From Candidatus Poribacteria bacterium (lineage in GTDB: Bacteria; Poribacteria; WGA-4E; JAJDTR01): 64,000 nucleotides of DNA. Numbering within the stretch: the stretch's first letter is position 1; each line of letters opens with the position of its first letter. The notes beneath the pieces are model-generated. The model searched no databases and had not been told where the DNA came from. It was given only the letters and a program-made list of their open reading frames with translations. The stretch is taken from the NCBI GenBank assembly GCA_965222225.1, contig CBDCTK010000002.1, positions 5,294,977 through 5,358,976 of the forward strand. The letters are read 5' to 3'. Made by a program: the position numbers and the translations under genes. Shown in pieces: positions 20,711 to 64,000 of the stretch.

Positions 20711-20833
20711 GACCGATCAGCTGAGATCAACCGAACGATCAACTGAGTGGATAACGAAGGCGATAGTAAATCCTACAGTGGGGGATCAAGTGAGTGGACA
20801 ACGAACGCGATAGCTAATCCCGATAGAGATCCT
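20711..20833. repeat. GATCAA/GCGATAG-family array (about 6 units)
   Basis: gatcagctgagatcaaccgaac / gatcaactgagtggataacg / aaggcgatagtaaatcc / gatcaagtgagtggacaacg / aacgcgatagctaatccc / gatagagatcc. Confidence 0.8.
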
Positions 20834-34873: not shown

Positions 34874-37327
34874 TTATTCGACCTTGCGAATCACGAGACG
34901 GTAGTGTTGCCCAATCTTCTTCGTGTCTGTAATCTCGTGACCATCATTCGTTAGGCTTTTGGGCACGTTTTCAATCGGTTCGCCATCATCAATGGTGATT
35001 TCCAGAAGTTGACCGACATCCATCGTTTCCAAACGGATTTTCGCTCGCACGTAGTTGAATGGACACGCCACACCTTTCAGGTCAAGGCTGTCCACAATTT
35101 CCTCAACTGCTTCAACTTTCGACGGAGCGTCCGGGATACGTGCGGGGCTTGCCTCGCGCCGTTTCCGCTCGCCTCGACTTTGTTGCTGCTCCTCTTCCTG
35201 ACGAATCTGCATACGATTATAGACGTTGTGCGCTTCCTCGATAAAGAGCGTCGCCTCCTCAACCCGCTGATGTGTCAATTCGGCGTTGAGATTATCCGTT
35301 CCCTCCTCAACGGCTTTGAAGATGTGTGCGCCAAAACCGGCAAAGACAATTCGCGGCTCGAAAAACCGGTTCCGAAATTCCGAAACCGTTGTTTCATCGT
35401 CAACGTATTGCAAACCTTCTGTCGTCAGCAAACCATCGGCAGCCCGAATCATTCCTTCAAAGGCGCGTGTAGCAGATTCGACGAACTCCTCTCGTTCGAG
35501 CAGCAGCCCGGCTTCATAAAGCAGACGATCGGCTTCCTCAAGTTTGAACGAAACTAGCCCAACTAACTTCCCTGCACATTCACCAACACCGGTCTTCAGC
35601 TGGAACTCCTTCGTATCACCGGTGTCAACGTAGTAACTCGGGTCCTCCTCGTAGGTCGGAATCTTGTCGTACTTCAAGAGGACTTTCTTGATTTCAGCTT
35701 TCCCCAACCGCCCAATGAAAGCGGTGAAGGTTTCGTCCTCACCTCGCTCGTCAAGATACCTATCCGTCATTTCCTTGATAAACTCGGGGATATACTTTCC
35801 GTGAATCTTGCCGTTGGGAAGTCCATAAGAGCCTGCATTATCAACGGCATGACCACCCAAGAGCACCTGATAATACGGCGCGATGTGGTCCCCAAATCGC
35901 CGAGATGAGCCAAAGAAACCGATGTTGGCGATGTGGTGTTGGCCGCACGAGTTTGGGCAACCGCTAATCTTGATTCGCAGGTCGTCGAGTTCAGATTTCA
36001 CGCCGGTCTGGATGAAATGGTCTCTCAGGTGTGCTGCCAAACCGCGAGAAGACGACACTCCTAATTTGCAAGAATCGGTGCCCGGGCAAGCCGTAATATC
36101 AACCGTAGATTCCGCACCCGGATCGCCCAAACCGACGGCTTTCAATTCACGATAGAGTGCGGGAAGGTCGGTCATCGTGACCCAACGCAGCACAAGATTC
36201 TGCTCTACAGTCGTGCGAACCGTCTCCTTCACATATCGACGGGCAATGTCCGCCAGCGCCCGCGTTTGGTCGGCGGTGATGTCTCCCAGCGGAAGTGTGA
36301 CAGTGACGAATGCATAACCAAGCTGACGCTGTGAACGAACGTTTGAGGCGTACCACTCCTCGAATCCTTCCGGCTTTGTGACTCCGTTCAGTTGCGTCGG
36401 CGGCTTCAGCGGCTCTTCGTCATACGCATTGAGATTTTCAAGATAACTTGTCCATGCGGGGTCATGTCGCAGTTTCTCACGTTCTTCAAGCACCAAGTGT
36501 CGGAACTCGTCAATCCCAAGTTTCCCGACAACGAACTTCATCCGTGCTTTGTTGCGGTTTTTCCGCTCGCCAAGCCGAGTAAATACTTTGGCAATCGCCT
36601 GTGAAATCGGGAGCAACTCCTCCTCCGGTAAAAACTCATCGAAAACCTTTGCCTGATGGGGTACCGCACCAAGACCGCCGCCAACGAGAAGTTTGAACCC
36701 TCGTTTTGGTTTGCCATCGACCTCTTTCATAACCGCAACTGCCCCGATGTCGTGCATGTATCCCAAACCACAGGCATGTTCATGGCAACCGGAGAACGCA
36801 ATCTTAAATTTCCGTCCGAAATCTTGGGCATCGGGGTGACCCAACATAAACGCGGAGAGTGCCTGCGAATGCGGAGTCACGTCAAACGCCTCATCATGGC
36901 ATACACCGGAAAGCGGACAAGCTGTTACATTTCGAACCGCATTCCCGCACGCTTCCTTTGTGGTAATGCCGACAGACGCGAGCCGTCGCATCAACTCCGG
37001 CGCGTGATTGATGTCAACGTAGTGATATTGCACATCTTGGCGCGTAGTAATGTGGATAATATTGTCCGACATCTCCTCGGCGATATCAGCGAGCATCTCA
37101 AGTTGCGCCGCATTCAATCCGCCGAACGGAATCTTCACACGAATCATTTGTGATTGATTGTCGCGTTGTCCGTATACTCCGTGACGCAATCTGAACTCGG
37201 TGAAAAGTTCCTCCGGCACGTCGCCATCTTGGAAGCGATTAAGCTGTGTTTCAAAAATCTCAATCGCGCGGCCAACGTCCTCGGGAATCGTGTCTATGTT
37301 ATAAGGTATTGCCGCTCCCGTCGCCAT
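34874..37327 (-). CDS. Ferredoxin-type assimilatory sulfite/nitrite reductase hemoprotein with a C-terminal extension that ends in a TusA/SirA-like domain
   Basis: Two NiR/SiR ferredoxin-like repeats. Siroheme/4Fe-4S motif CPNSCGQHHIANIGFFGS and a second cysteine cluster (TACPGTDSCKLG). 817 aa, against about 570 aa for a typical Sir. The C-terminus, LDLKGVACPFNYVRAKIRLETMDVGQLLEITIDDGEPIENVPKSL, resembles the TusA CPxP-type fold. Confidence 0.8.
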   Translation of the reverse strand: MATGAAIPYNIDTIPEDVGRAIEIFETQLNRFQDGDVPEELFTEFRLRHGVYGQRDNQSQMIRVKIPFGGLNAAQLEMLADIAEEMSDNIIHITTRQDVQYHYVDINHAPELMRRLASVGITTKEACGNAVRNVTACPLSGVCHDEAFDVTPHSQALSAFMLGHPDAQDFGRKFKIAFSGCHEHACGLGYMHDIGAVAVMKEVDGKPKRGFKLLVGGGLGAVPHQAKVFDEFLPEEELLPISQAIAKVFTRLGERKNRNKARMKFVVGKLGIDEFRHLVLEEREKLRHDPAWTSYLENLNAYDEEPLKPPTQLNGVTKPEGFEEWYASNVRSQRQLGYAFVTVTLPLGDITADQTRALADIARRYVKETVRTTVEQNLVLRWVTMTDLPALYRELKAVGLGDPGAESTVDITACPGTDSCKLGVSSSRGLAAHLRDHFIQTGVKSELDDLRIKISGCPNSCGQHHIANIGFFGSSRRFGDHIAPYYQVLLGGHAVDNAGSYGLPNGKIHGKYIPEFIKEMTDRYLDERGEDETFTAFIGRLGKAEIKKVLLKYDKIPTYEEDPSYYVDTGDTKEFQLKTGVGECAGKLVGLVSFKLEEADRLLYEAGLLLEREEFVESATRAFEGMIRAADGLLTTEGLQYVDDETTVSEFRNRFFEPRIVFAGFGAHIFKAVEEGTDNLNAELTHQRVEEATLFIEEAHNVYNRMQIRQEEEQQQSRGERKRREASPARIPDAPSKVEAVEEIVDSLDLKGVACPFNYVRAKIRLETMDVGQLLEITIDDGEPIENVPKSLTNDGHEITDTKKIGQHYRLVIRKVE

Positions 37328-37955: not shown

Positions 37956-38130
37956 GTACATTTGTAGGGTGCGCACTGCGCACCAACCTCTAAAAGCCCC
38001 AGAGTGGGATCAAGGGAGCGAATAGCGACTGCGATAGAGATCCATGAAGGTGTATAGAAACGCCAAAACCCCGTGCACCTAAGCCCCAGCGGGGATCAAA
38101 CGAACGGATAGTGAGTGCGATAGCAATCCC
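37956..38130. repeat. Composite: GTACATTTGTAGGGTGCGCACTGCGCACC hairpin module plus a GATCAA/GCGATAG array
   Basis: gatcaagggagcgaatagcgactgcgatagagatcc … gatcaaacgaacggatagtgagtgcgatagcaatccc. Confidence 0.8.
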
Positions 38131-49640: not shown

Positions 49641-49989
49641 GGGCACATCTATAGTGTTTTACACGCCTGACGGAAATTACGCAAAAATCCGCACGACTGC
49701 GGTTTCCGATAGCTACGTGACATTTGATTGGGCGTACCAGACCGATCGGAACAATCCTGAGTTAGCGCCGCCTGCTCCGAGAAACTAAATTCATTACGCA
49801 ATCTGAAATCTCATCTAGCATTACCTCTCGGTTGTGTTGTTTGTGCCAATTTTCAACCCCTCGCGGCCGATCCGCTTTGCGACATTAAAGTCAATGAGCG
49901 GTCAATATGTAGGGATAGGACGAAGATTTTCAGCGCGGATGCAACAAAAAGATAGCAAGAGGAAATCACCCGTTTCCCAGGAGATTGCG

Positions 49990-50775
49990 ATGTTGCATCC
50001 TACCGAAATCGTGCGATTGAGCCGCCAACGGATCGGGGCATCAGTTCTGGCTTGGCTTGCGTTGTGGTGTATACCGTGTGGTGCATCAACACACCTGTCA
50101 CTACTTGATGCAAAAGACTTGGAGCCGTTTCCGATTAGAATCGGAGAAATTCTGACTTATACGGTCAAAATTGCGGGCATATCTGCCGGAAAACAAGTTA
50201 CTAAGGTGGTTGAACAGACCACATTGGATGGACATGAAGTTTATCGTTTGACATCGGAATCACGGACGGACTCGCTGTTTGCAAAGTTTTACCATTTCCA
50301 AGATTTAAAAGAAAGTTACATTACGACAGATCAATTTTATCCTGTTCGATTCACGAAGAACCTTGAAGACCGTAGCTACCAGGCACGCGTCAAAGTCAAC
50401 TTTTTCTGTGAGGACGGTGCTACCGAGTATTCTAAGAATGAGGCCTGTAAGAAGATTAAGGCTCCGATTGGTACACAAGATGAGTTATCAATGGTTTATT
50501 TTGTCCGATCCAAAGATTTCAAAGTTGGGCAGACATATTCTTTTCCGGTATTGATAAAAGACGCCGTTCAAGATGTTGTTCTCACTGCCTATCGCCGCGA
50601 GGTGATAAAGACGGAAGCCCTTGGACGGGTGGAAACCATTGCATTGCGCACATCGCACGGTTATTTGATATGGTTGACCAACGACGAGCATCGTTTTCCT
50701 GTGCGTATTGAGGCGGAAACCCGCGCGGGTAGTAAATTAGTTGGAACACTTAAGAGCGTTGATTTTGCCGAGTAG
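49990..50775 (+). CDS. DUF3108-like protein
   Basis: Signal/TM segment followed by the …GEILTYTVKIAGISAGKQV… pattern recalled from the DUF3108 family. The start is inferred at MLHPTEIV. Confidence 0.5.
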   Translation: MLHPTEIVRLSRQRIGASVLAWLALWCIPCGASTHLSLLDAKDLEPFPIRIGEILTYTVKIAGISAGKQVTKVVEQTTLDGHEVYRLTSESRTDSLFAKFYHFQDLKESYITTDQFYPVRFTKNLEDRSYQARVKVNFFCEDGATEYSKNEACKKIKAPIGTQDELSMVYFVRSKDFKVGQTYSFPVLIKDAVQDVVLTAYRREVIKTEALGRVETIALRTSHGYLIWLTNDEHRFPVRIEAETRAGSKLVGTLKSVDFAE

Positions 50776-50784
50776 GTTGAGGGC

Positions 50785-53700
50785 GTGTTAGATTTGCTGC
50801 AACAAACAGATACTTATCAGAAGCTCATTGAGATTCTTACAAGTCATCTCCCGAGTTCCGAGACCAGATCAGTTACGAGCGGAAAAGAAAATTCGGTCCT
50901 ACCTTGGTTAACAGGAGTGCATGGACCATCCCTCTCCTACCTGCTGGCAGCGTTGGCGAAAGACGCTCCCGAAACGTCCTTTCTAGTTGTCCTGCCCTCC
51001 CTTCAAGAGGCCGAAAAAGTCGTTCAAGATTTACCGGCATACGGCTTTGAAGATGCCCAGTTTTTCCCCGACCTTCAGAATTTTCTATACGATGGCGTTG
51101 CCCCGTCAAAAAGAGTTACCGCGGAGCGAATGAATTGCCTCCATAGCCTTATGGGCGGAAAACGTACGATCGCCATTACTTCCGTAAAGGCATTGATGCA
51201 TAGAGTTCTCCCCAAGGCTATTCTGGAGTCGGCGTTTCTTCGGGTAAGTGTGGGAGATGAAATTAGTCCTGACAAGATTGTTGAGGTATTGGTGCATAGC
51301 GGCTATCAGCGGACTGATCTGGTTGAGGTCAAAGGGGAATTCGCCCGTAGAGGGGATATTTTGGACGTGTATCCGCTTGTTTCTGACGAACCAATCCGTA
51401 TCGAATTTTTTGGGGACGAAGTCGATATAATTCGCGTGTTCGATCCGACTTCGCAACGATCGGTTAAGGTACTGAAATCGGTTATGTTCAGTCCGATGCG
51501 TGAAATGCTGATTACCGACGAGGCGATTGAAGCATGGCGGACACAAGCGAATCAGCTTATAGAAGATGATACATCGACAAAGTTTCGGAGCGAAATTCAG
51601 GGAATTACGGAACGCTTGGAAAGCGGAATAAACCTGGATGGACTTGAAGCGTTACTTCCAATCCTATATCCGAACGCGAGCGTTCTTTCCGAATACCTGT
51701 CGGGCAGAATTGTCACACTTCTGGTTGAGCCGACGTGGCTTGAGCGCGAAGCCGATCGAATTGTTGAAGGAGCGAACGGATTGTATGAAAAGAGAAAAGC
51801 CTTAAATCAATTCATGGTGTCACCCGATCAGATGTTTGTTCCGTTTGAGACGCTAATGTCCGTACTCAAAACTCGACCGACTCTGCAAGTGTCTTCCTCG
51901 CCACTCCCCGAGGCCGGATCCGAAGAACCTTTAGATTTCGGTATGCAACCTCTCAGCCTTTATCGAGGCAACTATCAAGTGGTCATAGACCAAATAAAGG
52001 AATGGACTGACGCGGGCTACTTCGTCAACATCTTCTCCGAAACTCCGAAACAAGCAACGCGAATGCAAAGCATCCTAGGCGATCACGGTCTTCCCGATAC
52101 CCAGACGACTGTGAGTGTTGGTGGCATCAGTGAAGGTTTTCTGAATAAGTTCCTCAAGCTCGCTATTTTGTCCGAAGATGAGATATTTGGGCGGGAGCGT
52201 CGATTGCCTCAGCGTCATTCTACGTTCAAAGAAGGGGCGCCAATCCTTAGCCTCATCGATCTCAAAGAAGGCGACTATATAGTGCACGTTTCGCACGGAA
52301 TCGGGATTTACGAGGAGATGCGGCGCCTTGATATTGATGGAAAATCTCAGGATTTTCTGGTGTTGAAATATGCGGATGGCGACATACTGTACGTTCCAAC
52401 CTATCAAATCGACTTGGTGCAAAAATATATTGGCGGCGGGGGTGAAGAAAGACGTGGACCTCGGCTCGACAAGATCGGCGGAACTTCGTGGCAACGCAGG
52501 AAGGCACGCGTCAAAGCCTCGATTGAGCAAATGGCGGATGAACTTCTTCGCCTATACGCAATACGCGAATCCGGTGAAGGGCATTCATTTTCTGCTGATG
52601 TACCGTGGCAAGTCGAGTTTGAAGCCACGTTTCCCTTTGAGGAAACTCCCGATCAGTTGAAAGCCATTGAGGACGTTAAGGGTGATATGGAACGTGCCCG
52701 TCCTATGGATCGATTGGTCTGCGGTGATGTGGGGTACGGAAAAACGGAGGTCGCCCTTCGCTCGGCGTTCAAAGCCGTGATGGACGGGAAGCAGGTCGCT
52801 GTTCTTGTTCCAACGACTATTCTTGCGCTACAGCATTATAACACGTTTGTGGAGAGATTTAGTCCATTCCCTATTCAGGTCGAAATGCTGACGCGTTTTC
52901 GCACGGCAAAGGAGTTGGCAGCTGTCAAGCAGGGATTGGCTGAGAGCACGGTTGATATTGTGATTGGGACACATAGTTTGCTCTCCGATAACGTAGAGAT
53001 TCACGACCTTGGATTGCTCGTGGTTGACGAAGAGCATCGCTTTGGGGTCAAGCATAAGGAAAAGATTAAGCAACTCAAAAAGACGGTGGATGTCCTGACC
53101 CTGACAGCGACGCCAATACCACGCACATTGCACATGTCACTCGTCGGGATTCGTGATTTCAGCGTCATCAATACACCGCCCGAAAACCGCATGCCCATTA
53201 AGACCTACGTGATGGAGTATGACTCCGCCGTGATTCAGGACGCAATTCTGCGCGAGATGGAACGTGGCGGGCAAATCTTTTTTGTTCACAATCGTGTAGA
53301 AAGCATTGCAAGCATTGCGAAGTCCATCCGAGAGCTCGTTCCGCAAGCGCGAGTCGCCATCGGACATGGGCAGATGTCTGAGCGACAACTCGAAACGGTC
53401 ATGATCGATTTTGTTCAGTACAAGTACGATGTTTTGGTCTGCACCATGATTATCGAATCGGGACTGGACATTCCCAATGTCAACACGATTCTGATCAATC
53501 GCGCCGATGCTTTGGGGCTTGCTCAGCTCTATCAGTTGCGTGGGCGAGTTGGACGCGCACAACAGCAGGCTTACGGTTTCCTTTTCTATCCGCAAGGGCG
53601 AGTTATCACCGAAGGGGCGCAGAAACGGCTGCGGGTAATTGAGGAGTTCACGGAGCTTGGTTCTGGATTCAAAATTGCCCTCCGAGACCTTGACATTCGC

Positions 53701-54264
53701 GGTACCGGAAATATTCTCGGAGCGGAACAGCACGGTTACATCGCCACGATCGGCTATGAAATGTATTGTAAGCTGCTTAATGAAACGGTGAAGACCGTAT
53801 CCGGCGAGGAGGTCAAAGAGTCGGTTGAAACGCGAATTAACCTACCGGTTGAGGCGTATCTGCCGGATGAATATGTTCCGGATAGTCGTCAGAAAGTTTC
53901 TCTCTATAAGAAAATTGCTGGCATAGAGACGGCGACGCGCCGAGCAGACCTCGAAGCCGAGATAAATGACCGTTACGGAAAAATTCCGGAACCTGTCGAG
54001 ATATTGCTCGAAATTGCTCAATTGAAGCATCTGAGTAAAGAATTGGGTATTCAGACCATCGCCGCCGGTGATGAACAGATTAAGATTACATTTGACGATG
54101 CGAAGTCGCAGGTGGATCCGACACGGTTAATCCAACTTATTCGGCAAGATCGACGCCTCCGGCTCGCGCCCCCTGCGCGGTTGATGGTAAATATGCAGGG
54201 GCTGGCTGGAAAGACGCTAGTGTTGGCAGTCAAAGCGATTCTAAAGCGCCTGATTGAAAATTAA
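50785..54264 (+). CDS. mfd: Transcription-repair coupling factor
   Basis: 1159 aa. UvrB-homology N-terminal region, CarD/TRCF RNAP-interaction domain (…[14 protein letters not shown]…), superfamily-2 helicase motifs ([11 protein letters not shown]; DEEHRFG) and the C-terminal TRCF domain. Confidence 0.95.
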
Positions 54265-54703: not shown

Positions 54704-55732
54704 ATGAAGAAGACTCTCTTGATGTCGGTTATGATTCTTGCGGTCTGCTTCTGTAGTTGGCAAATTGCGTTCTCGCACGGAGGAGACTCGGATCATGAGG
54801 TGGCAGATGAAGTAGATGAGAGCAAGGTAAGCATTGCCGAATATAGCTGGAATGGTGAACAATTCTCCGTCTCGTTGGCGGACCTCAATGCAAAGATTGA
54901 GGATTTGTCCTCATATCGCCAACGTAAACTGCGGGCGAGGGAAAGCAAGGAAGAATTTCTCACGGAACTCATTGAAGACAAGCTGAAAATCCTTGCCGCA
55001 GCGGAAAAACGGTATGACGAAGATCTGGAGCACCTTGAACAATGCGAGGACTATAAGCACCAGCTTATGGTTGAAAGAATCTCTGAAGCGGAAGTCGATG
55101 AAAAAATCAACGTTACAGAGGAAGAGCTTATGCAATATTACGAGGAACACAAAAGTGAATCCACGTATATTGAAGAAGCGCGGTGCAAGGCGACCTGCAT
55201 CTCCGTGATAGATAAGGAGCTTGCGCAAACGACGTTTGATGAAATCAAAGCGGGTAAGGATATTCTTGAAGCGGCAAAGGAACTGGCTGAGAAGAATAAA
55301 CTCAAGGGGCCCGGAGCTGGAACGCGGTCCCCGGGGAACACAGGCAACTTTACAAAAGACGTTGCCCCGAGCTGGCAGCCCTTCATCGATGCGGTTTTCG
55401 AGCAAGAAATCGGCGAGATGACGGATACAATCCTTGAAATCGAAGTCGAGGGGACAACCTACTATCTAATCTTCCGAAAAGAAGAATACAAACCTGAGCG
55501 ACAGAAGGAGTTCGACGAAGTTCGAGAAAGAATTCAGCGGAGGGTTGAGCGTGAGAAAAAGCAGGAACGAATCAAGATCTGGATTGAGGAAATATCGGCG
55601 GCAAGCAAACTCAAAACATTCCCGGATCTTATTCCCGAACCTCCCGCTGATGAAACGGATCAACAAGAGGATGGAGGTAGCAACGCAGAGACCTCGGAAA
55701 ACGCAGAATCTACGGAATCAGACCAACAGTGA
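54704..55732 (+). CDS. SurA/PrsA-like periplasmic chaperone paralog 1 (SurA N-domain plus degenerate parvulin domain, acidic C-terminal tail)
   Basis: Signal peptide, SurA-N-like helical region, a parvulin-like segment (…KATCISVIDKELAQTTFDEIKAGKDILEAAKE…), then an E/D-rich tail. Confidence 0.6.
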   Translation: MKKTLLMSVMILAVCFCSWQIAFSHGGDSDHEVADEVDESKVSIAEYSWNGEQFSVSLADLNAKIEDLSSYRQRKLRARESKEEFLTELIEDKLKILAAAEKRYDEDLEHLEQCEDYKHQLMVERISEAEVDEKINVTEEELMQYYEEHKSESTYIEEARCKATCISVIDKELAQTTFDEIKAGKDILEAAKELAEKNKLKGPGAGTRSPGNTGNFTKDVAPSWQPFIDAVFEQEIGEMTDTILEIEVEGTTYYLIFRKEEYKPERQKEFDEVRERIQRRVEREKKQERIKIWIEEISAASKLKTFPDLIPEPPADETDQQEDGGSNAETSENAESTESDQQ

Positions 55733-55760
55733 TTTTTTCCCATATTTAGGAGGCGAAATT

Positions 55761-56807
55761 ATGAAAAGCCAGATGTCTGGGTTAGCAAGTTTAATGTTGA
55801 TTGGAATTGTTGCTACCTGTGTTGTGTTCAACGGATGCGGTGGCAGCGCGACCGCCGCTGAAGGGACAGTTATCGCGGAATTCGAGTGGGACGGAAAACA
55901 CCAAATCACCCTCGAAGAGATGATGCAAGAGATTGCTGAATTACCAGAGTACAAGCAGAAAAAGTACAAAGACAAAAGCGGACTTGAAGAATATATGACC
56001 TTGATGGCGGAAAGCCGCTTAATCCTCAGCCTCGCCAAGGACCGAAATCTCGACGAAGATGAAGAAATCCTGAAGAAAGTCAGAGATCATCTTCACAAAT
56101 TAATGGTCGATAAAATCACCGATACTGAAGTCGAGGAAAAACTCGTGTTAACGGAGGAAGATTATCGGCTCTACTACGAATCCAATAAAGAGGATTACAT
56201 TGATACGGAGAACGTTGAGTTGACATGTATTGCCCTCGATGACGAAGAGCGTGCCACGGAAATATTTGAGGAACTCAAAGGTGGTAGAGACATGATTGAA
56301 CTCGCCACGGAGTTGTCCGATCACGGTGACTTGGTGGGTCCCGGCTCTGACGCTCAGAATCCAGGCCAACCGGGCAAGATTCGCCGAGGCGCCTTTCCGG
56401 AAGGAACCGAGCCATTCGTGGATGCCGCTTTTGCGGCAGCGGTTGGTGAGTTTCATGATGGTGTAATCAAAATCACTGTTCGCGGCAAAAATTACTTCAT
56501 CATCTTCCGCAAAGACAAACATAATGAAGAACGGCAAAAGACATTCGACGAAGAAGGTGTCCGCAGCAATGTCGAACGAGCCGCTAAACGGCAAAAGCGC
56601 AAAGAACTCATGGCGCAATGGCTTACCCAACTTCGAGATCGGGCAAAGATTCAAATCCACAGTGAACTCATTCCCGAGACGCCGGCGGAAGAAGAAGAGG
56701 CCGAGGAAGAACAGGTGAACGAGGAAGATTCGACAGAGTCGGAGGAAAATCAGCAGGAGCTGGACGAAAGCATGGCGCCTAACGAAGAAGCCACGACGCC
56801 AGAGTAA
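55761..56807 (+). CDS. SurA/PrsA-like periplasmic chaperone paralog 2 (tandem paralog of 54704..55732)
   Basis: Lipoprotein-like signal (VVFNGCGG) and the same domain order and motifs (…ELTCIALDDEERATEIFEELKGGRDMIELATE…). The start at 55761 has an AGGAGG ribosome-binding site. The longest ORF begins at 55545. Confidence 0.6.
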   Translation: MKSQMSGLASLMLIGIVATCVVFNGCGGSATAAEGTVIAEFEWDGKHQITLEEMMQEIAELPEYKQKKYKDKSGLEEYMTLMAESRLILSLAKDRNLDEDEEILKKVRDHLHKLMVDKITDTEVEEKLVLTEEDYRLYYESNKEDYIDTENVELTCIALDDEERATEIFEELKGGRDMIELATELSDHGDLVGPGSDAQNPGQPGKIRRGAFPEGTEPFVDAAFAAAVGEFHDGVIKITVRGKNYFIIFRKDKHNEERQKTFDEEGVRSNVERAAKRQKRKELMAQWLTQLRDRAKIQIHSELIPETPAEEEEAEEEQVNEEDSTESEENQQELDESMAPNEEATTPE

Positions 56808-57003: not shown

Positions 57004-58252
57004 CGGAATTAGTAGCTTGTAGCTTTTAGACTGACGACAAACATAAAACTTGGTACCCTGTCGTAAATCTTTTCGTCGCACGTAGATGTCCATAGTGACT
57101 ATTCTTCTCGTAGGAGTTTGCTATGGACATTTTGAATCTTATGAAAGAGTTTCCAAATCAAGAATCTTGTCTCAGATTTATAGAGGAAAAACGTTGGAAG
57201 GACGGTGTTTGCTGTATCCACTGTGGCAGTGAAAAAGTTGGACGCAAGAACAGAAACGACATTACTACTGGTTGGAATTGCTACGATTGTGAATCTAGCT
57301 TTTCGGCTACAGCAGGAACCATCTTCCATGGTACCAAGATACCTCTCCAGAAATGGTTTTTGGCTATCTCAATCCTTTCCAATGCCAAGAAAAACATATC
57401 GAGTTGTCAGCTTGCTCGTGACTTGGACATGAATCAAAAGTCCGCTTGGTATATGGCAATGCGCCTCCGTGAGAAAATGAGTGATAGTGATGAATTGCTG
57501 AAAGGGATAGTTGAAGCGGACGAAACCTATGTCGGCGGCAAACCCAGAGCAAAATCTAAGAGAGGTAGAGGCACAAATAAATCTCCCGTCATCGGCGTAG
57601 TCGAGAGAGGCGGTCGGGTGGTTGCTAAATTCATGAAGGTTCTATCTGGTGAAAATATCAGAGAATTCATCCTTAGCAATGTCTCACCCGATGAGTCTAT
57701 TCTTATGACTGATGAATTTCGCTCTTACAATAGTCTGGACGAAGATATCGAAAGACATGTTATCCATCACCAAGAGAGATATGTTTCTGAGGACGGCGTA
57801 ACTCACACCAATACCATCGAGTCGGTTTGGGCTTGTGTCAAGAGGTCATTCTACGGAACGCATCATCACTACAGCAAGAAGTGGCTGCCACTGTATATCA
57901 TGGAGTCTTGCTGGAAATATAATCGCAGAAAAGATGATGAGATTTTCATAAGATTTTTTGATGAATGCTTCACCTGAGCCACATGAATTGTTTGGCTATC
58001 GGTATATTCTGTCAACGACAGCATCATGGTATGATGTAAATCCCATAGTGTTGGAAATTAAAATCCCGCAGATAACCCGCAATGCTCCCGCGAGCATGTA
58101 CAAACGCTTGGTCAACATGATATGCCTCCATTTCTCTCTTATAGAGATGTATTTTAGTGTGAATCAAGATTCCGAACACTGTCTAAAGTTATTGTACATT
58201 AAGAAAAGAAAAGCAAGCAAATCAACCAAAAAGCAGTTAACTACTAAGTCCC
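57004..58252 (+). mobile_element. IS1595-family insertion sequence (1249 bp) with imperfect 23-bp terminal inverted repeats and an 8-bp target-site duplication TAGAGATT
   Basis: Left end CGGAATTAGTAGCTTGTAGCTTTT matches the reverse complement of the right end (GGGACTTAGTAGTTAACTGCTTTT) at about 17 of 23 positions. Direct repeats TAGAGATT at 56996-57003 and 58253-58260. An 8-bp duplication is typical of IS1595. Confidence 0.8.
57123..57977 (+). CDS. IS1595-family (ISXO2-like) DDE transposase
   Basis: N-terminal zinc ribbon (CIHCGS…CYDCES), then …QKWFLAI… and ADETYVGGK, characteristic of IS1595/ISXO2 transposases. 284 aa. Confidence 0.85.
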   Translation: MDILNLMKEFPNQESCLRFIEEKRWKDGVCCIHCGSEKVGRKNRNDITTGWNCYDCESSFSATAGTIFHGTKIPLQKWFLAISILSNAKKNISSCQLARDLDMNQKSAWYMAMRLREKMSDSDELLKGIVEADETYVGGKPRAKSKRGRGTNKSPVIGVVERGGRVVAKFMKVLSGENIREFILSNVSPDESILMTDEFRSYNSLDEDIERHVIHHQERYVSEDGVTHTNTIESVWACVKRSFYGTHHHYSKKWLPLYIMESCWKYNRRKDDEIFIRFFDECFT

Positions 58253-58699: not shown

Positions 58700-60004
58700 A
58701 TGATGCTCTCTAGACAGATATTCCGCATAGTTTTCATCTCTATACTGATTGTGTGCGCGGTGGATTCGGCGCGATCACGCACATTCGATCAAATTATCGC
58801 CTATGTCAATGACGAAGTCATAACGAATTGGGAACTTGAAAACTTGGTGAAGCAGCGTGCCCTCGAACTTATCCAAATCCACAATTTTAGTAAGCGTGAA
58901 GCAGCCGAAAAAGCGCGACAAGAACGACATGAACTGCTGGATCGCTTGATTCGCCAGATGCTTCTTGTGGAAACAGCCCTGACCTTGAAGGTTGAAATTA
59001 CTAACGAAGAATTGGAGATGCATATCAAAACCTTCAAGCAACGAGCAAAGATCGAGACACAAGAAGAATTCGTCAAGCAATTGAAAGAGGAAGGTTATAC
59101 CCTAACCGGTTTCCGTGAACAGTCCAAGCGAAACCTGATGGCAGAACGACTTCTGGAAAGGCGAATTTTTCCAAGATTGCAGGTCAGGGATAGCGATGTC
59201 TTAAAGTTTTTTGAAGAAAACCGCGATCGATTTACAACCAAATCGGATAACCTGCAGCTGAGGCACATCCTTATTGCGTTTAAGCCCTCCGAAGCCGATC
59301 GAGAGGAGGCATTAAATAAGGCGGAGGTCGCTTTTCAAGCAGCTAAAGACGGAGCCGATTTCGAGGCGCTTGCAAAACGCTATTCTAAAGGGCAGCACGG
59401 GGACCTAAAGCCGGGGCCTGCGATCGAATTAACGATTGATGATGTCGATACACTCCCTAAGCCGTTTCGCGAATCGCTCCAAATGCTAAATGAAAACGAC
59501 ATTGGCGATCCGGTTGAAGACAAGAATGAAATCTTTATTTTCAAGATAGAACGCAAGACCGTCCAAACTGTTGAATTCCGCTATCTTGTCATCAGGTTAA
59601 CCGTGGGGGAAGAAGCTATCCAAGCTGCTCAAGAGCGCGCCGATCTTGTTTATCAGAAACTTATACAAGGGGAAGATTTCAATGCCTTGGCAAGCCGCTA
59701 CTCGGACGATACACAAACAAAAGCGAATGGCGGAGATCTCGGCAGTCATTCAATTAATAAGTTGGCTCCCGAAACGCGAAACGTAGTAGAAAAACTCGAA
59801 GTCGGAGAGTTTCAAGCCCCTGTCAAAATGAAGTTTGGCTTCCAAATCTTTAAAGTCGATGCTCGGACGCCGCCAGAATTGAACGATGTAGAAAAAGATC
59901 AAATCCGTTCGATGCTGCGTCAACAGAAATTCGAGGAAGAATGGAAAGTGTACACGGACATGCTGCTTGGGAACGCCTATGTAAAAATCAAACCCCTTGA
60001 CTAA
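58700..60004 (+). CDS. surA: Peptidyl-prolyl isomerase SurA-like chaperone with two parvulin (PpiC) domains
   Basis: Signal peptide, SurA N-terminal domain (FDQIIAYVNDEVITNWELE…) and two PpiC-type domains (…LQLRHILIAFKPSEAD…GDLKPGP…; …FRYLVIRLTV…GGDLGSHS…). 434 aa. Confidence 0.8.
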   Translation: MMLSRQIFRIVFISILIVCAVDSARSRTFDQIIAYVNDEVITNWELENLVKQRALELIQIHNFSKREAAEKARQERHELLDRLIRQMLLVETALTLKVEITNEELEMHIKTFKQRAKIETQEEFVKQLKEEGYTLTGFREQSKRNLMAERLLERRIFPRLQVRDSDVLKFFEENRDRFTTKSDNLQLRHILIAFKPSEADREEALNKAEVAFQAAKDGADFEALAKRYSKGQHGDLKPGPAIELTIDDVDTLPKPFRESLQMLNENDIGDPVEDKNEIFIFKIERKTVQTVEFRYLVIRLTVGEEAIQAAQERADLVYQKLIQGEDFNALASRYSDDTQTKANGGDLGSHSINKLAPETRNVVEKLEVGEFQAPVKMKFGFQIFKVDARTPPELNDVEKDQIRSMLRQQKFEEEWKVYTDMLLGNAYVKIKPLD

Positions 60005-60026
60005 GCGGTTTATTTTCTAAGTATTT

Positions 60027-60370
60027 AAGGCTTACGGGACTAGCACAACAGACTAGTTCCGCAACCCCTGCAGGACAAGTTTCCAGTTCGCCCCCGGAGA
60101 TCTGCCACTTAACTACGGAGGCATATAATACTGCTACAAGCGTTTCGCTCCAGCGGAGATCAAAGGAGTGAATAACGACTGCGATAGGGATCTTCCATTT
60201 TACCCTGTCTTAGTAGTCTATTCTCCAGCTAGTTAATACTTACGACTGCCACAAGAGACATGTTTCGCAACCCCTACGAGCCTTTACGCATAGCCAGTTC
60301 TAATCCGTGAAATCCTTTAATCCGATCAACTGACTGGACAAGGAAGGCGATAGGGAATCCTGATTCAGAC
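60027..60370. repeat. Tandem duplication of an intergenic block of about 170 bp, each copy ending in a GATCAA/GCGATAGGGA unit
   Basis: Copy 1 runs about 60027-60200 (ttaaggcttacgggactagcacaacagac…gcgatagggatcttcc). Copy 2 runs about 60234-60370 (ttaatacttacgactgccacaagagac…ggcgatagggaatcctg). Copy 1 also contains CGCTCCAGCGGA. Confidence 0.65.
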
Positions 60371-60594
60371 AATTAGTAAAATTCGCATGCCTCATACCTT
60401 ATACTTTTAACGAATCGACCACTGAGGTCAGTTGGGGACTTGGCTGAAGTAGCAGATGGGAGAAGACCATTACTGTTGATTGTCACTAATCTTGGACTCC
60501 GACACTCGCGGCGGTTTGACCTATCATATCAACGGCATGTTGAAGAAGGATGGGGAGTTTGTAGCGCTTGTAAATGGCATAAAGTAGGCAGGAA

Positions 60595-63500
60595 ATGAGG
60601 AAGCGAGGAAGGCGGAGTATTGAACTAGGAAGCAGGCAACGCAACCAGTCAAACCAAAGTTGGGGCATTCAATTCCACGTCTTGGGGTTCAACCTCTATC
60701 TTCCACATCGCGTCCTGCTCAGAGTTCATCACCTTCTGCCGAAGATATTCTCCTTCTATCATGTTGTCTCTTGTGCGTTTGGCAATGCACAACACCTGAT
60801 ATTACGAGTTTTTCTGAAGCCCGCGTTCTTGGTCGGGTTTGCTTGCCTATTCCTCCCGATTGATACCGTCCTCGCCCAAGTTCAATCCACCCCTCCAAAC
60901 GATGCAAGCGAAGTATCCACTTCCTCTCCAGAAGACCCATCTAAAACAGATGAAGCCGCGAATCTCTCGTTAACTGACGTAGAGAAATCTTCCACCGCCA
61001 GGCTGGATCCGAGGGGTACTGCGCCTGAGAAGGAAACCGTTATCGGAGACGGTGATAAGATGTTCATGTCAGATAACTTCGTCCAAATTCACGGCAACGC
61101 GTTGATAAAATCCGAAGATGTTGTACTATATGCCGATCACATCTGGGCAGATTTCGACGACAACATCATGCGCGCCACGGGAAATGTGAGGCTCATTGTC
61201 GGTAAAGAGGAGACTTTTGCCGATGAACTAATCTTTGATCTTGAAACGAAAAAAGGTATCGCACGCGATGGATTCACGTTTGATGATCCATGGTATTTTG
61301 GCGGCTCCGAAATCTTCAAGATTGAAGACGACGAGTCCTACATCCGCGGAGGCAGGTTGACAACCTGTTCCTTGAAGCAGCCGCATTTTTATTTCTCCGC
61401 ATCCCAAATCATCGTCAAAATCAATAAGGAGTTGATTGCTAAGAACATTGTGCTAAACGTCGGAGGGGTACCGCTTTTCTACTTCCCTCTAATTCGTCGT
61501 GACCTTCGAAAAAAGGACAAACTTGCCAAAATCATTGTTAAACTCGGCACCGATAGTTATCAAGGCCCCTACCTTAGTATCATTCTACCAGTTTTTCGCC
61601 ATTACCGGTATTCGGCGGAACTGCTGTTCGAGCAGAGCACCAGACGCGGTAGTGGAGGAGGAACGCAAGCCAAATACCGTGTGAACGATGTTAAATTCCA
61701 AGAACTTTTCATTCCGGTTCCGCCTGAAGCAACGCCGGGGCAGCGAGCGCAACTTAAGGAAAAGGCGGATGAACTTTCGGATCGCTTGCGAGGAGAATAC
61801 GATAGATTCAAGCTGCGCGAAGTTTTCTTGAAGTATCAAATCAAAGACATAGATATTGAACGGGCACGTGAGAGTGTTGAGACTGTATACAGCCAACTCC
61901 GGGAGGAAAACGTAGATTTCGGCGAGATTGCTCAGCAACAGTCAGACCATCAAGAATCGCGCTATCGGCAGGGCGATATGGGCTTCCTCGTCCCGGGCGA
62001 ACGCGACAAGGAAGGTAGGCTGAAGCTGGAACCCGCTCTTGAGCAAGTGGCGTTCCGTCTCCAGCCAGGCGAAATGAGCCCGATTCTGCGAACCGATTTT
62101 GCCTTTCACATTCTCAAGATAGACCAAGTGCTTGATATTTATGGGGAACGCGAAGTTCAAGTGCGGCGCATTGACATCGCTATCAAACCAAGCGAGGAAA
62201 CTCGAGACGCTATTCGAGCGGTCGGGAAAGAGCTTCAAGAGCGGGCAACCGCCGGTGAGCCGCTTGAAGGACTTGTCGCCGAATTCGATGGCGCCGAGAT
62301 AGATGTTGTAAATGGTGGAGAATTGACACACTTGAACGAAATGGATCAGCGGTGGCGACATTCGGTTCGACGCCTAAAGCAGCCCGGTGAAATTACGCTG
62401 CCAGTCAATACCGACCGGGGTGTCCATATCTTTCAACTGATTGAGAGGGAATCCACACCCACATTTGAACAGGTCGCTCGGCAATTTGAAGCGGAATGGG
62501 AAGTGCTAAAACAGGAATTGCCTGCCCTAGAAACAAAGCCGAATCCAGACAAGGATGAGGGAAGGTTTGAAAGTACAAGGCGTGTTGAAAGTTCCGCGTA
62601 TGCAAAAGGTGACTCGGACAGTGCCGAAGCTCTCTCGGAAGATGGAGAAGAGGAGGAAGAGATACAGGTCTATCAACAACACGGCTTCCGTGGCAAGTGG
62701 GAAGATCCGCAGGCAGTTGCGACGCAGGCACAAAGGCTTGATCGCGGAGAAACTAGCCGCGTCATCAAAGCCCCCGACGGATTTCGCCTGATAAAAGTGG
62801 AAAAAAAACGAGCCTATCGTGGCGATTTTCTATTCCTGTCCCAAGATAAATACTCGGGATCGCGCCGAGAGCCAATCAAAACCGGGCAACAATGGACAAT
62901 GCGATGGGGACACCATCATAAAATCTTTACGCCTTGGGATAATCGACAGGAGGGACGGAGTCCGTTGAGTTTCAACGGACGTATGGCATGGTATGCGAGA
63001 ACCTTCAAAGAGGGATACGGCACGCCCGAATCGACCATCAATTCCTTCGGGGTCTTCACATGGGGATCTGCCCTGACGGGGGTAGATTCTCATGACCTTG
63101 ATCCCGATGAGAATCTCAAATTTTCGCGCAAGCGATTTGGGTCTTTTCTCTCGCGCCTTGAGGTCAAACACACATTGGATCTCACGGGCGAAGGTACGAC
63201 AATTCTCCAGAAACTGCCCCAACTAACGATGCAATTTTCCCAAATGCAATTCGATCAACTTCCACTGTTCAAAACAGTCAATTCCGGGTTGACCAAGGCT
63301 GCCAAAAAACTGGATACGGATTTTCCAGTCCTTTCGATGTTTGCTTTTCCGACCCTCGACAATACACGCTTCGACCTTGACGTTGAATTTGGCAATTTCT
63401 TCAAGCAGCGATTCCGAGATGAAAGGGATATTTTCTTGCAAACGCTGGATCTTGGATTCGATCTTACAAAACAAACCACGATTCAGATAACGCCGTACCG

Positions 63501-64000
63501 AGAATTCCGCTTTGATTTGAGCTACGATAGCAACCTGATTTGGCATGCGAAAGATACTGAGGGCAATCGGAACATCATCCGTGGCGTTCATAGTTTGAGA
63601 GCGAGAGGCAGTAACACCCTGTTTAGAATTTATGACATCAGCTTTATCCCGGGTGCGCGACGCATGCGCCATCAAATCCAGTCGAGCCTTTCGTTTGATT
63701 ATCAACCCCCTGTCGACAGGGACAACAACCTATATCAATTTGCGCCAAGCACGTTCTTCTTTGAGAGAAAGAGGCTCTCCTATAATTTCCGTACCAGTTT
63801 TGAAGTAAAAACTCGGCGTAGCAAAAGACCCTTGTCCCTGCTTGATTTCGATACAAGGCTACGGGCAGATTTTAGCGAGAACACCGTGAGGGGGCGCACA
63901 TATGAACCAATCAGAAGCGACGTAACGATTACACCGTTGGCGAGCCGTAACCTACGAATTAGTTTTAACATGACCAACGACCCGAATCTAGATCCTGCAA
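60595..64000 (+). CDS. lptD: 3'-partial LptD/OstA-like outer-membrane protein with two parvulin (PpiC) domains inserted between the N-terminal OstA domain and the beta-barrel
   Basis: By manual translation, frame 1 is open from 60544 to the window end. It is absent from the ORF table only because no stop occurs. The OstA_N jellyroll (…NFVQIHGNALIKSEDVVLYADHIWADFDDNIMRATGNVRLIVGKEE…) is followed by the LptD hallmark (…RLTTCSLKQPHFYFSASQI…VPLFYFPL…). Two parvulin domains follow (…FKLREVFLKY…GDMGFLVPGE…FAFHILKIDQV…; …VQVRRIDIAIKPSEET…RGVHIFQLIE…). After those come beta-strand-rich, barrel-like repeats. The start codon is uncertain; the first in-frame ATG is at 60595. Confidence 0.6.
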   Translation, partial: MRKRGRRSIELGSRQRNQSNQSWGIQFHVLGFNLYLPHRVLLRVHHLLPKIFSFYHVVSCAFGNAQHLILRVFLKPAFLVGFACLFLPIDTVLAQVQSTPPNDASEVSTSSPEDPSKTDEAANLSLTDVEKSSTARLDPRGTAPEKETVIGDGDKMFMSDNFVQIHGNALIKSEDVVLYADHIWADFDDNIMRATGNVRLIVGKEETFADELIFDLETKKGIARDGFTFDDPWYFGGSEIFKIEDDESYIRGGRLTTCSLKQPHFYFSASQIIVKINKELIAKNIVLNVGGVPLFYFPLIRRDLRKKDKLAKIIVKLGTDSYQGPYLSIILPVFRHYRYSAELLFEQSTRRGSGGGTQAKYRVNDVKFQELFIPVPPEATPGQRAQLKEKADELSDRLRGEYDRFKLREVFLKYQIKDIDIERARESVETVYSQLREENVDFGEIAQQQSDHQESRYRQGDMGFLVPGERDKEGRLKLEPALEQVAFRLQPGEMSPILRTDFAFHILKIDQVLDIYGEREVQVRRIDIAIKPSEETRDAIRAVGKELQERATAGEPLEGLVAEFDGAEIDVVNGGELTHLNEMDQRWRHSVRRLKQPGEITLPVNTDRGVHIFQLIERESTPTFEQVARQFEAEWEVLKQELPALETKPNPDKDEGRFESTRRVESSAYAKGDSDSAEALSEDGEEEEEIQVYQQHGFRGKWEDPQAVATQAQRLDRGETSRVIKAPDGFRLIKVEKKRAYRGDFLFLSQDKYSGSRREPIKTGQQWTMRWGHHHKIFTPWDNRQEGRSPLSFNGRMAWYARTFKEGYGTPESTINSFGVFTWGSALTGVDSHDLDPDENLKFSRKRFGSFLSRLEVKHTLDLTGEGTTILQKLPQLTMQFSQMQFDQLPLFKTVNSGLTKAAKKLDTDFPVLSMFAFPTLDNTRFDLDVEFGNFFKQRFRDERDIFLQTLDLGFDLTKQTTIQITPYREFRFDLSYDSNLIWHAKDTEGNRNIIRGVHSLRARGSNTLFRIYDISFIPGARRMRHQIQSSLSFDYQPPVDRDNNLYQFAPSTFFFERKRLSYNFRTSFEVKTRRSKRPLSLLDFDTRLRADFSENTVRGRTYEPIRSDVTITPLASRNLRISFNMTNDPNLDPA

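What the first reader, a model, noticed from the sequence alone, without database searches (positions are those of the whole stretch)
60595..64000. The LptD/OstA-like outer-membrane protein appears to carry two parvulin (SurA-type) domains inserted between its N-terminal jellyroll and its beta-barrel
By manual translation, frame 1 has no stop from 60544 to the window end, giving more than 1100 aa. The ORF is missing from the six-frame table because it never terminates inside the window. The order is OstA_N (…ADHIWADFDDNIMRATGNVRLIVGKEE…), the LptD hallmark (…TTCSLKQPHFYFSASQI…VPLFYFPL…), two PpiC/parvulin-like domains (…KLREVFLKY…GDMGFLVPGE…FHILKIDQV…; …VQVRRIDIAIKP…GVHIFQLIE…), and then a beta-barrel-like region. 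In E. coli, lptD and surA are adjacent separate genes in one operon. Here chaperone domains seem to be built into the LPS-insertase itself. The same 10 kb also encode three more SurA-like genes (54704, 55761, 58700). A fused insertase-chaperone would be an unusual envelope-biogenesis architecture.
Basis: partly seen in the sequence, partly recalled or inferred. Interest (0 to 1): 0.7.

Follow-up and report, generated by a model that had tools for sequence, protein, structure and literature searches.

The report
LptD with three built-in parvulin domains
In the sponge-associated phylum Poribacteria, the outer-membrane protein that inserts lipopolysaccharide (LptD) carries three chaperone-type parvulin domains spliced into a periplasmic turn of its barrel, an arrangement found in every lineage of the phylum sampled here and filed in databases only as "peptidylprolyl isomerase".

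Summary
One reading frame runs from ATG 60595 to the window end (1135 codons). A 99 % identical full-length homologue has 1292 aa.

The flanks are LptD:
- NCBIfam LptD and N. gonorrhoeae LptD match the N-terminal part.
- Profile-profile alignment to canonical LptD_2 proteins gives E 2.7e-37 (N-part) and 3.8e-33 (barrel).
- An AlphaFold model (pLDDT 82) has a jellyroll plus 26 strands. Its 15 best PDB matches are full-length LptD (E 3e-20).

Four barrel strands precede the insert and 22 follow it, so it sits in the periplasmic turn between strands 4 and 5, not between jellyroll and barrel.

The insert holds three parvulin folds, not two. They are nested: an outer parvulin is split by two inner ones and by an acidic disordered loop. 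None keeps both catalytic histidines, and there is no SurA N-domain.

The architecture recurs in more than 120 protein clusters in four divergent lineages. Every one with a taxon label is Poribacteria, and surA lies just upstream in all four loci examined.

Function is inferred: most likely a tethered, non-catalytic chaperone or assembly module. Whether this is the genome's only LptD could not be tested.

The parts
60595..64000 (+). ORF of the LptD-parvulin protein, residues 1-1135 of about 1292. It is cut by the window end and lacks barrel strands 20-26 and the C-terminal extension.
   Evidence: Residue i corresponds to nt 60595+3(i-1).
60595..60876 (+). Long basic leader plus hydrophobic signal-peptide-like segment ending ...TVLAQ|VQ (residues 1-94). 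The cleavage site is inferred.
   Evidence: the only in-frame start candidates are ATG 60595, TTG 60682 and TTG 60829. Comparable long leaders occur in P0018, P0071 and P0086. Conservation is low, 22 %.
60877..61029 (+). Low-complexity Ser/Pro/Glu-rich linker (residues 95-145).
   Evidence: Sequence; 30 % conservation.
61030..61503 (+). LptD N-terminal beta-jellyroll (residues 146-303). It includes the invariant TTC(S)LK Cys258 and the GG(V/I)PLFYFP hinge motif.
   Evidence: NCBIfam LptD E 4e-6; N. gonorrhoeae LptD 7omm_A E 1.8e-5; hhalign to LptD_2 proteins prob 99.94; model strands; Cys258 in 67 of 67 sequences.
61534..61689 (+). Barrel strands beta1-beta4 (residues 314-365), before the insert.
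   Evidence: hhalign maps them onto canonical LptD_2 and then onto E. coli SGFLIPNAKY...IMWENEFRYLS. The model has four strands here.
61690..61794 (+). N-part of the outer parvulin D3 (residues 366-400): its first strand, continuous with barrel strand 4, and its first helix.
   Evidence: Joining this segment to residues 620-646 and 687-748 raises Pfam Rotamase from 19.4 to 32.9 bits and extends coverage to profile positions 3-96 of 97. The same holds in P0122, 45.4 to 59.9 bits. The model has one continuous 23-residue strand followed by a helix.
61795..62139 (+). Inner parvulin D1 (residues 401-515).
   Evidence: Pfam Rotamase E 4e-17. At the catalytic His pair it has Glu and His.
62140..62460 (+). 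Inner parvulin D2 (residues 516-622).
   Evidence: Pfam Rotamase E 6e-9. At the catalytic His pair it has Arg and His.
62461..62811 (+). Remainder of outer parvulin D3 (residues 623-739): a helix at 623-645, an acidic disordered loop at 646-690, and the C-half at 691-739, whose last strand runs straight into barrel strand 5.
   Evidence: pLDDT is below 50 for model residues 511-552, which is P0001 647-688. There is one continuous 26-residue strand at 729-754. The loop is 23 % conserved against 59-62 % for the folded parts.
62812..64000 (+). Barrel strands beta5 to beta19 (residues 740-1135), with a helix-bearing periplasmic connection between beta10 and beta11 (residues 886-923).
   Evidence: hhalign to canonical LptD_2 E 3.8e-33; search of 1.84 billion representative proteins finds canonical LptD; model and Foldseek.
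58700..60004 (+). Separate surA gene just upstream (SurA N-domains plus two parvulins). The neighbourhood is conserved.
   Evidence: The same surA-then-fusion order occurs in L001, L004, L005/L006 and L002.
54704..56807 (+). Two further PPIase-like genes (54704-55732 and 55761-56807), downstream of mfd (50785-54264).
   Evidence: Rotamase_2 at E 2e-6 and 2e-7. Both genes are conserved in L001 and L004. L005/L006 keep one, followed by an unannotated 235-aa ORF.

Best explanation
The gene encodes the Poribacterial form of LptD, the outer-membrane lipopolysaccharide translocon. It has a periplasmic beta-jellyroll and a 26-strand barrel. A module of about 375 residues is spliced into the periplasmic turn between barrel strands 4 and 5. 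The module is three parvulin folds in a nested arrangement. Barrel strand 4 continues as the first strand of an outer parvulin (D3). After D3's first helix come two complete parvulins (D1, D2). The chain then returns to finish D3, passing through an acidic disordered loop, and D3's last strand continues as barrel strand 5. The module therefore hangs on a two-stranded stalk under the barrel wall, three to four strands from the beta1/beta26 lateral gate and next to the jellyroll. All of this is shown or directly computed. The function is inferred. Because no domain keeps both catalytic histidines, and because LptD is the classic strongly SurA-dependent substrate in E. coli, the module most likely works as a tethered, non-catalytic chaperone or docking device. 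It would help this very large barrel fold at the BAM machine, and/or hold client or partner proteins at the translocon, working alongside the free SurA encoded immediately upstream. The confidence figure refers to the identity and architecture. I put the specific chaperone/assembly role at roughly 0.35.
For: The ORF is continuous and 99 % identical to the full-length P0001.

LptD identity:
- NCBIfam LptD E 4e-6.
- PDB LptD 7omm_A E 1.8e-5.
- hhalign of both flanks to 29 canonical LptD_2/LptD/LptD_N proteins: E 2.7e-37 and 3.8e-33.
- Those canonical proteins against real E. coli LptD: E 3.3e-27, collinear.
- The exhaustive barrel-profile search returned no Pfam family other than LptD types and Rotamase among the 20 long hits scanned.
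- Foldseek: the 15 best hits are full-length LptD, E 3e-20 to 1e-15, TM 0.45-0.54. The nearest barrel that is not LptD scores E 2.6e-5.

Topology:
- The insertion maps to about E. coli Q282-G284, between IMWENEFRYLS and GLMELDYLPS.
- E. coli P231 and P246 lie in GFLIPNAKY and FYLPYYW and are on beta1 and beta2 (PMC6164715). The site is therefore after beta4, a periplasmic turn.
- The model has 4 + 22 = 26 strands.

Nested parvulins.

Selection and conservation:
- The parvulins are as conserved (58-63 %) as the barrel (61 %).
- The architecture is present in more than 120 clusters and in divergent lineages (P0122, P0125, P0128), with Poribacteria labels wherever a label exists.
- surA lies immediately upstream in all four lineages.

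SurA dependence of LptD: PMC3747590.
Against: - Pfam's own LptD, LptD_2 and LptD_N models do not reach threshold on this protein, and HMM profiles of the C-part find no PDB LptD. Membership rests on profile-profile and fold evidence.
- The barrel cysteine that makes LptD's conserved interdomain disulfide is replaced in this lineage, and the beta1 proline is absent.
- No other lpt gene lies in the 64-kb window, among the 16 of its 33 ORFs of 250 aa or more that were scanned.
- I could not check whether the genome has a second, canonical LptD.
- No coordinates of the model were available, so the position of the module relative to the gate is deduced from strand order, not measured.
- Nothing tests the chaperone role. 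SurA's parvulin domains are largely dispensable in E. coli (general knowledge), so parvulin folds alone do not prove chaperone activity.
Confidence: 0.8

Rival explanations
1. The protein is an LptD-derived paralogue that no longer exports LPS. The barrel serves mainly as an outer-membrane anchor for a periplasmic parvulin module, making it an OM-tethered foldase or chaperone for other clients. A canonical LptD elsewhere in the genome does the LPS work.
For: It is strongly diverged from curated LptD models, with no Pfam LptD/LptD_2 hit. The conserved barrel Cys and the beta1 proline are lost. No lpt genes are nearby. A conserved C-terminal extension is absent from canonical LptD.
Against: The jellyroll, hinge motif, beta2 proline and the full 26-strand barrel are kept under strong conservation. 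The exhaustive profile search found no unfused full-length relative closer than LptDs of other phyla (WOR-3, TA06, Edwardsbacteria). The P0128 lineage keeps both cysteines together with the insert. These negatives are weak, because a distant classical LptD would not have been detected.
Confidence: 0.15
2. The parvulin domains are active prolyl isomerases that act in trans on periplasmic or outer-membrane proteins, or in cis on prolines of LptD itself. The benefit of the fusion is catalytic, not chaperone-like.
For: D1 and D2 score well against Pfam Rotamase (E 4e-17 and 6e-9). Both keep the second histidine. The best PDB sequence match is the PrsA foldase parvulin 2jzv (E 1.4e-13).
Against: The first catalytic histidine is Glu in D1 and Arg in D2. 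The second is Arg in D3. The Asp/Cys position is His in D1 and Ala in D2. In P0122 the substitutions differ but are again incomplete.
Confidence: 0.15
3. One reading: the parvulin domains form a linker between the N-terminal jellyroll and the first strand of the barrel.
For: By eye, the LptD hallmark motifs end about 60 residues before the first parvulin motif.
Against: Those 60 residues align to barrel strands 1-4 of canonical LptD and of E. coli LptD. They form four strands in the model, and only 22 strands follow the insert.
Confidence: 0.02
4. Artefact: two genes joined by a sequencing or assembly error or a frameshift.
For: None. The ORF is merely absent from the six-frame ORF list because it runs off the window.
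Against: The same continuous architecture occurs in more than 120 clusters of 1243-1382 aa from many independent assemblies, including multi-megabase contigs. The barrel is split by the insert, which no simple join of two genes could produce.
Confidence: 0.01

Closest known systems
LptD (LPS-assembly protein; E. coli P31554 type, Pfam PF04453/PF03968, and especially the LptD_2 type PF19838 of WOR-3, TA06 and Edwardsbacteria)
   Same: It has a periplasmic beta-jellyroll with the TTC motif, the GGxPxFYxP hinge, a 26-strand barrel and a proline in strand 2. It is collinear with canonical LptD over both flanks.
   Different: A three-parvulin module of about 375 residues sits in periplasmic turn 2. 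A conserved C-terminal extension of about 44 residues ends in ...SYF. The barrel cysteine of the interdomain disulfide and the strand-1 proline are lost. There is a helix-bearing beta10-beta11 turn. It lies below Pfam thresholds.
SurA (periplasmic OMP chaperone; E. coli b0053, PDB 1m5y)
   Same: Its tandem parvulins P1-P2 align collinearly with D1-D2 of the insert. The link to LptD is both genomic and functional: the genes are adjacent in E. coli, and LptD depends strongly on SurA.
   Different: The insert has no SurA N-terminal/C-terminal core chaperone domain. Identity is only 24-26 %, no closer to the neighbouring SurA than to E. coli SurA, so it is not a recent copy. It has a third, enclosing parvulin and is covalently part of a membrane barrel.
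PrsA / PpiD-type foldases (parvulin domain inserted into another domain)
   Same: The best sequence matches of D1 are PrsA parvulins (2jzv, E 1.4e-13). The principle of a parvulin inserted into a host domain is shared (domain organisation from general knowledge).
   Different: Here the host of D1-D2 is itself a parvulin, and that parvulin's host is a beta-barrel turn. There is no NC chaperone domain and no lipoprotein or inner-membrane anchor.

Membership tests
LptD | N-terminal OstA/LptA-type beta-jellyroll | tested here: met
   NCBIfam LptD PRK04423 E 4e-6. PDB LptD 7omm_A E 1.8e-5. hhalign prob 99.94 to LptD_2 proteins that carry LptD_N. The model has 14 jellyroll strands at pLDDT 80-90. 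Pfam LptD_N and OstA_2 alone are sub-threshold, E 0.05-0.07.
LptD | 26-stranded C-terminal beta-barrel homologous to LptD barrels | tested here: met
   hhalign E 3.8e-33. There are 4 + 22 strands in the model. Foldseek's top 15 hits are full-length LptD, E down to 3e-20. Caveat: this is a model, not a structure, and its alignment contained canonical LptDs.
LptD | Reaches the curated Pfam score for LptD (PF04453) or LptD_2 (PF19838) | tested here: not met
   There is no hit at E up to 10 on the C-part. Only P0086 and P0105 have a precomputed PF19838 hit, and P0121 scores E 4e-4.
LptD | Prolines in strands 1 and 2 that weaken the beta1/beta26 seam (E. coli P231, P246) | tested here: inconclusive
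   The strand-2 proline is present and invariant (ILPV). The strand-1 position is Lys (KIIVKLG against GFLIPNA).
LptD | Interdomain disulfide between the jellyroll Cys and the barrel Cys (E. coli C173-C725) | tested here: not met
   Cys258 is invariant in 67 of 67 sequences, but it is the only Cys of the mature protein. Canonical LHCW is LHDW here. Both Cys are kept in the P0128 lineage.
LptD | Transports LPS together with an LptE-like plug, and is the cell's LptD | not testable with these tools
   No whole genome could be scanned. No lpt genes were found among the window ORFs scanned.
Parvulin (PpiC-type PPIase) | Parvulin fold or sequence above the Pfam Rotamase threshold | tested here: met
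   D1 scores 63.4 bits and D2 37.2 bits. D3 scores 32.9 bits only when its two separated parts are joined.
Parvulin (PpiC-type PPIase) | Catalytic residues, including the conserved histidine pair | tested here: not met
   Aligned to E. coli SurA P1/P2, the pair reads Glu/His in D1, Arg/His in D2 and -/Arg in D3.
SurA | SurA N-terminal chaperone domain (PF09312/PF13624) | tested here: not met
   It is absent from the fusion and present in the neighbouring gene 58700-60004.

The most novel reading that the evidence does not exclude
In Poribacteria the LPS translocon and part of the OMP-chaperone system are one machine. The tethered parvulin module would dock the nascent LptD, or other unfolded OMPs, to BAM, or it would take over the assembly and plug-assisting role that LptE, LptM or SurA play in proteobacteria. 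LPS insertion and outer-membrane protein folding would then be physically coupled at a single site. If so, this is a natural experiment showing which SurA-LptD contacts matter.
Probability: 0.15. Interest if true: 0.8.

Novelty: new variant of a known kind. Interest (0 to 1): 0.6.

Why it matters
LptD is essential, is a drug target, and is among the hardest outer-membrane proteins to fold. In E. coli its assembly depends strongly on SurA, for reasons that are still debated. A lineage that has welded SurA-type parvulin folds into a defined periplasmic turn next to the lateral gate gives three things:
- a fixed geometry for thinking about where such domains act on LptD;
- a clear deletion or transplant experiment;
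- an example of triple-nested domain insertion (parvulins inside a parvulin inside a barrel turn).

It also corrects annotation. Hundreds of database entries called "peptidylprolyl isomerase" or "hypothetical protein" are the LptD homologues of a phylum, so LPS-pathway reconstructions for Poribacteria that rely on Pfam would wrongly score LptD as missing.

Tried and rejected
- Pfam on the whole protein and on its pieces finds only Rotamase. LptD_N and OstA_2 are sub-threshold, and the C-part gives nothing.
- HMM profiles against PDB sequences: the full-length family profile returns only parvulins, and the C-part profile returns nothing relevant. Only the N-part profile finds LptD.
- The first AlphaFold run, with 67 closely related sequences, was poor exactly at strands 1-4 (pLDDT below 50). 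It was replaced by a run with 114 sequences that included canonical LptDs.
- My first manual mapping put the insert in an extracellular loop, because I assigned P231 to the wrong strand. Translating the real E. coli gene corrected it, and the literature assignment agrees.
- MAFFT misplaced two canonical strands around the insert. hhalign was used instead.
- Origin by recent duplication of the neighbouring surA is rejected: identity is 24-26 %, the same as to E. coli SurA.
- Long canonical relatives of 1014-1169 aa were checked for parvulins. They have extra OstA domains instead.
- The AFDB fold library was unavailable.
- Rfam on the 590-nt surA-lptD spacer found nothing credible.
- Literature searches for LptD with parvulin, rotamase or Poribacteria found no description of this architecture.
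- I could not devise a valid test, within the tools, for a second LptD in the same genome.
Full report
**1. The observation**

Translating 60544-64000 in frame 1 shows three stops, at 60562, 60571 and 60580. After them the frame is open to the window end. The ATG at 60595 starts a 1135-codon ORF.

A search of 5.8 billion proteins found P0001, which has 1292 aa and sits on a 111-kb ENA contig. It differs from the window translation at 12 of 1135 positions and supplies the missing 157 C-terminal residues. Window residue i therefore equals P0001 residue i and lies at nt 60595+3(i-1).

More than 120 protein clusters of 1243-1382 aa share the architecture. The named ones are from Candidatus Poribacteria, where they are annotated "peptidylprolyl isomerase" or "hypothetical protein".

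**2. What the curated libraries see**

- Pfam finds only Rotamase families on the window protein (E 3e-31).
- In pieces, domain 1 scores E 4e-17 and domain 2 scores E 6e-9.
- A C-terminal half-parvulin scores E 1e-4 to 5e-3, below threshold.
- LptD_N and OstA_2 score E 0.05-0.07, below threshold.
- The 553-residue C-part gives nothing.
- NCBIfam LptD (PRK04423) matches residues 152-369 to profile positions 63-282 at E 4e-6.

Family profiles against PDB sequences return parvulins (PrsA 2jzv, E 1.4e-13; SurA with both parvulins collinear) for the full-length profile. They return nothing relevant for the C-part. The N-part profile finds N. gonorrhoeae LptD 7omm_A at E 1.8e-5, through the GGVPLFY(F/T)P motif.

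**3. The flanks are LptD**

A profile of the post-insert region was searched against 1.84 billion representative proteins and gave 77 hits. These were the fused family and its fragments, then unfused proteins of 669-808 aa (E 1e-15 to 1e-10). Of the four such proteins scanned with Pfam, all carry LptD_2, three also LptD, and two also LptD_N. Their named relatives are LptD of WOR-3, TA06 and Edwardsbacteria.

Profile-profile comparison to 29 such canonical proteins gives:
- N-part plus pre-insert strands: prob 99.94, E 2.7e-37, ending at canonical residue 236.
- Post-insert region: prob 99.9, E 3.8e-33.
- Canonical set against real E. coli LptD, translated from NC_000913.3: E 3.3e-27 over 611 collinear columns.

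**4. Structure**

A first AlphaFold run (67 close relatives) gave pLDDT 71.5 and failed at strands 1-4. Even so, its 34 best Foldseek PDB hits were all LptD.

A second run used P0001 residues 137-1292 as target, with 114 sequences that included distant fused forms and canonical LptDs. It gave pLDDT 82 and pTM 0.64. Its elements in order are:
- a jellyroll;
- four strands (residues 314-320, 324-335, 339-348, 352-374);
- the insert;
- 22 more strands, up to residues 1239-1248;
- a short C-terminal extension.

Four plus 22 equals the 26 strands of LptD. In Foldseek, the 15 best hits are full-length LptD structures (4q35_A E 3e-20; TM normalised to target 0.45-0.54). LptD core complexes follow, then a PPIase (8hm4), and only then other barrels (E 2.6e-5 or worse).

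**5. Where the insert sits**

Chaining, the insertion point corresponds to about E. coli Q282-G284, between IMWENEFRYLS and GLMELDYLPS. In the real E. coli sequence, P231 lies in GFLIPNAKY and P246 in FYLPYYW. The literature places these prolines on beta1 and beta2 (PMC6164715).

The segments before the insert are therefore beta1-beta4. The jellyroll is periplasmic, so the beta4-beta5 connection is a periplasmic turn. The even number of strands after the insert (22) agrees.

My own first manual mapping, to an extracellular loop, was also wrong and was corrected by these steps.

**6. Anatomy of the insert**

The segment right after strand 4, FQELFIPIPPEATPGQRAQLKEKADQLSDRLRG, resembles the first strand and helix of a parvulin. 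Compare E. coli SurA P1, [32 protein letters not shown].

Joining residues 360-401 to 620-646 and 687-748 raises the Pfam Rotamase score from 19.4 bits (profile positions 63-96) to 32.9 bits (positions 3-96 of 97; E 1.3e-7). In the distant homologue P0122 the same operation raises it from 45.4 to 59.9 bits.

In the model, strand 4 is one continuous 23-residue strand followed by a helix. The last strand of the third parvulin runs without a break into strand 5, forming a single 26-residue strand.

The order is therefore: beta4, D3 (N-part), D1, D2, D3 (rest, interrupted by an acidic disordered loop at residues 646-690), beta5. That is three parvulin folds, nested.

Aligned with E. coli SurA P1/P2, the catalytic histidine pair reads Glu/His in D1, Arg/His in D2 and -/Arg in D3. 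There is no SurA N-domain.

D1-D2 are 24-26 % identical to both the neighbouring SurA and E. coli SurA, so there is no sign of a recent copy. Across the family the parvulins are as conserved (58-63 %) as the barrel (61 %), whereas the acidic loop (23 %) and the leader (22 %) are not.

**7. Distribution and context**

Other fused forms exist:
- P0122: 1173 aa, three clean parvulins, labelled Poribacteria.
- P0125: 1211 aa.
- P0128/P0209: about 1300 aa, four Rotamase hits.

A relative of P0128 lies on a MAG labelled Candidatus Poribacteria. Unfused relatives of 1014-1169 aa carry extra OstA domains and no parvulin.

The neighbourhood mfd, PPIase, PPIase, surA, fusion is found in the window. In the window only, an IS1595 transposase at 57123-57977 has been inserted. 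The same neighbourhood occurs in L001 and L004, where just 16 nt separate surA from the fusion. Upstream of the fusion, L005/L006 keep a PPIase, an unannotated ORF and surA. In L002, surA was detected just upstream. In E. coli, lptD lies immediately upstream of surA.

**8. Differences from canonical LptD, beyond the insert**

- Cys258, the equivalent of E. coli C173, is invariant (67 of 67) but is the only cysteine of the mature protein.
- The canonical barrel motif LHCW (Cys in 29 of 29) is LHDW here, so the interdomain disulfide cannot form. The P0128 lineage keeps both cysteines.
- The strand-1 proline is Lys.
- All fused lineages share a conserved extension of about 44 residues after strand 26, which ends in ...RSYF in most. 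Canonical relatives lack it.

**9. Mechanism**

Shown: this is an LptD homologue with a periplasmic, conserved, probably non-catalytic three-parvulin module attached rigidly below strands 4 and 5, on the beta1 side of the lateral gate.

Inferred: the module acts as a tethered chaperone or docking element. LptD is the textbook strongly SurA-dependent OMP (PMC3747590), and a free surA is always encoded next door. Alternatives are a paralogue that only anchors a foldase, or genuine PPIase catalysis.

I could not test whether this is the sole LptD of the genome, nor see the 3-D position of the module, because no coordinates are returned.

**10. Novelty**

Searches for LptD with parvulin plus fusion, with rotamase, or with Poribacteria found no description of this architecture. 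Databases do not call these proteins LptD. Both components are well known, so this is a new variant of a known kind.

Noticed in passing
P0128 / P0209; relative in L002:10800-14567: A divergent Poribacteria-labelled lineage has a second insertion of about 118 residues in the beta10-beta11 periplasmic connection, where the window protein has a helix (residues 890-906). The insertion is a fourth parvulin whose sequence order looks circularly permuted: the DF-helix, GGDLGW and GYHII motifs come first, then the VRAKYIFIA strand and its helix.
   Followed up: partly
window 61366-61368 (Cys258); P0001 residues 1215-1218 lie beyond the window: There is a single, invariant cysteine in the jellyroll (67 of 67 sequences), although its canonical disulfide partner in the barrel has been replaced by Asp/Asn. 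What the lone cysteine pairs with is unexplained.
   Followed up: partly
beyond the window: P0001 residues 1249-1292 (L001:13745-13876): A highly conserved C-terminal extension follows strand 26 (74 % identity across the family; two short strands and a tail ending SYF). It is shared by all fused lineages and absent from canonical LptD_2 proteins. It might be a lumen plug or a BAM beta-signal.
   Followed up: partly
window 60595-60876: An unusually long leader of about 94 residues, basic then hydrophobic, precedes the predicted AQ| cleavage site. Leaders of comparable length occur in other family members. The only alternative in-frame starts are TTG 60682 and TTG 60829.
   Followed up: partly
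window 57123-57977: An IS1595-family transposase gene sits between the second PPIase gene and surA. It is absent from the near-identical contig L001, so it is a recent insertion into the conserved gene cluster.
   Followed up: partly
window 60005-60594; copies at 8975-9073, 20736-20774 and 38008-38042: The 590-nt spacer between surA and the fusion gene is only 16 nt long in L004. It contains short sequences repeated elsewhere in the window (80-89 % identity), suggesting a small dispersed intergenic repeat. Rfam finds nothing.
   Followed up: partly
window 24510-28832 (-): A 1440-aa ORF has no Pfam match at E 1e-5 or better.
   Followed up: no
window 34874-37327 (-): An 817-aa protein combines duplicated nitrite/sulfite-reductase domains with a C-terminal TusA sulfurtransferase domain.
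   Followed up: no
window 49834-50775 (+): A DUF3108 gene lies directly upstream of mfd. The DUF3108-mfd pairing is also present in L001 and L004, so it belongs to the conserved neighbourhood of the PPIase/surA/lptD cluster.
   Followed up: no
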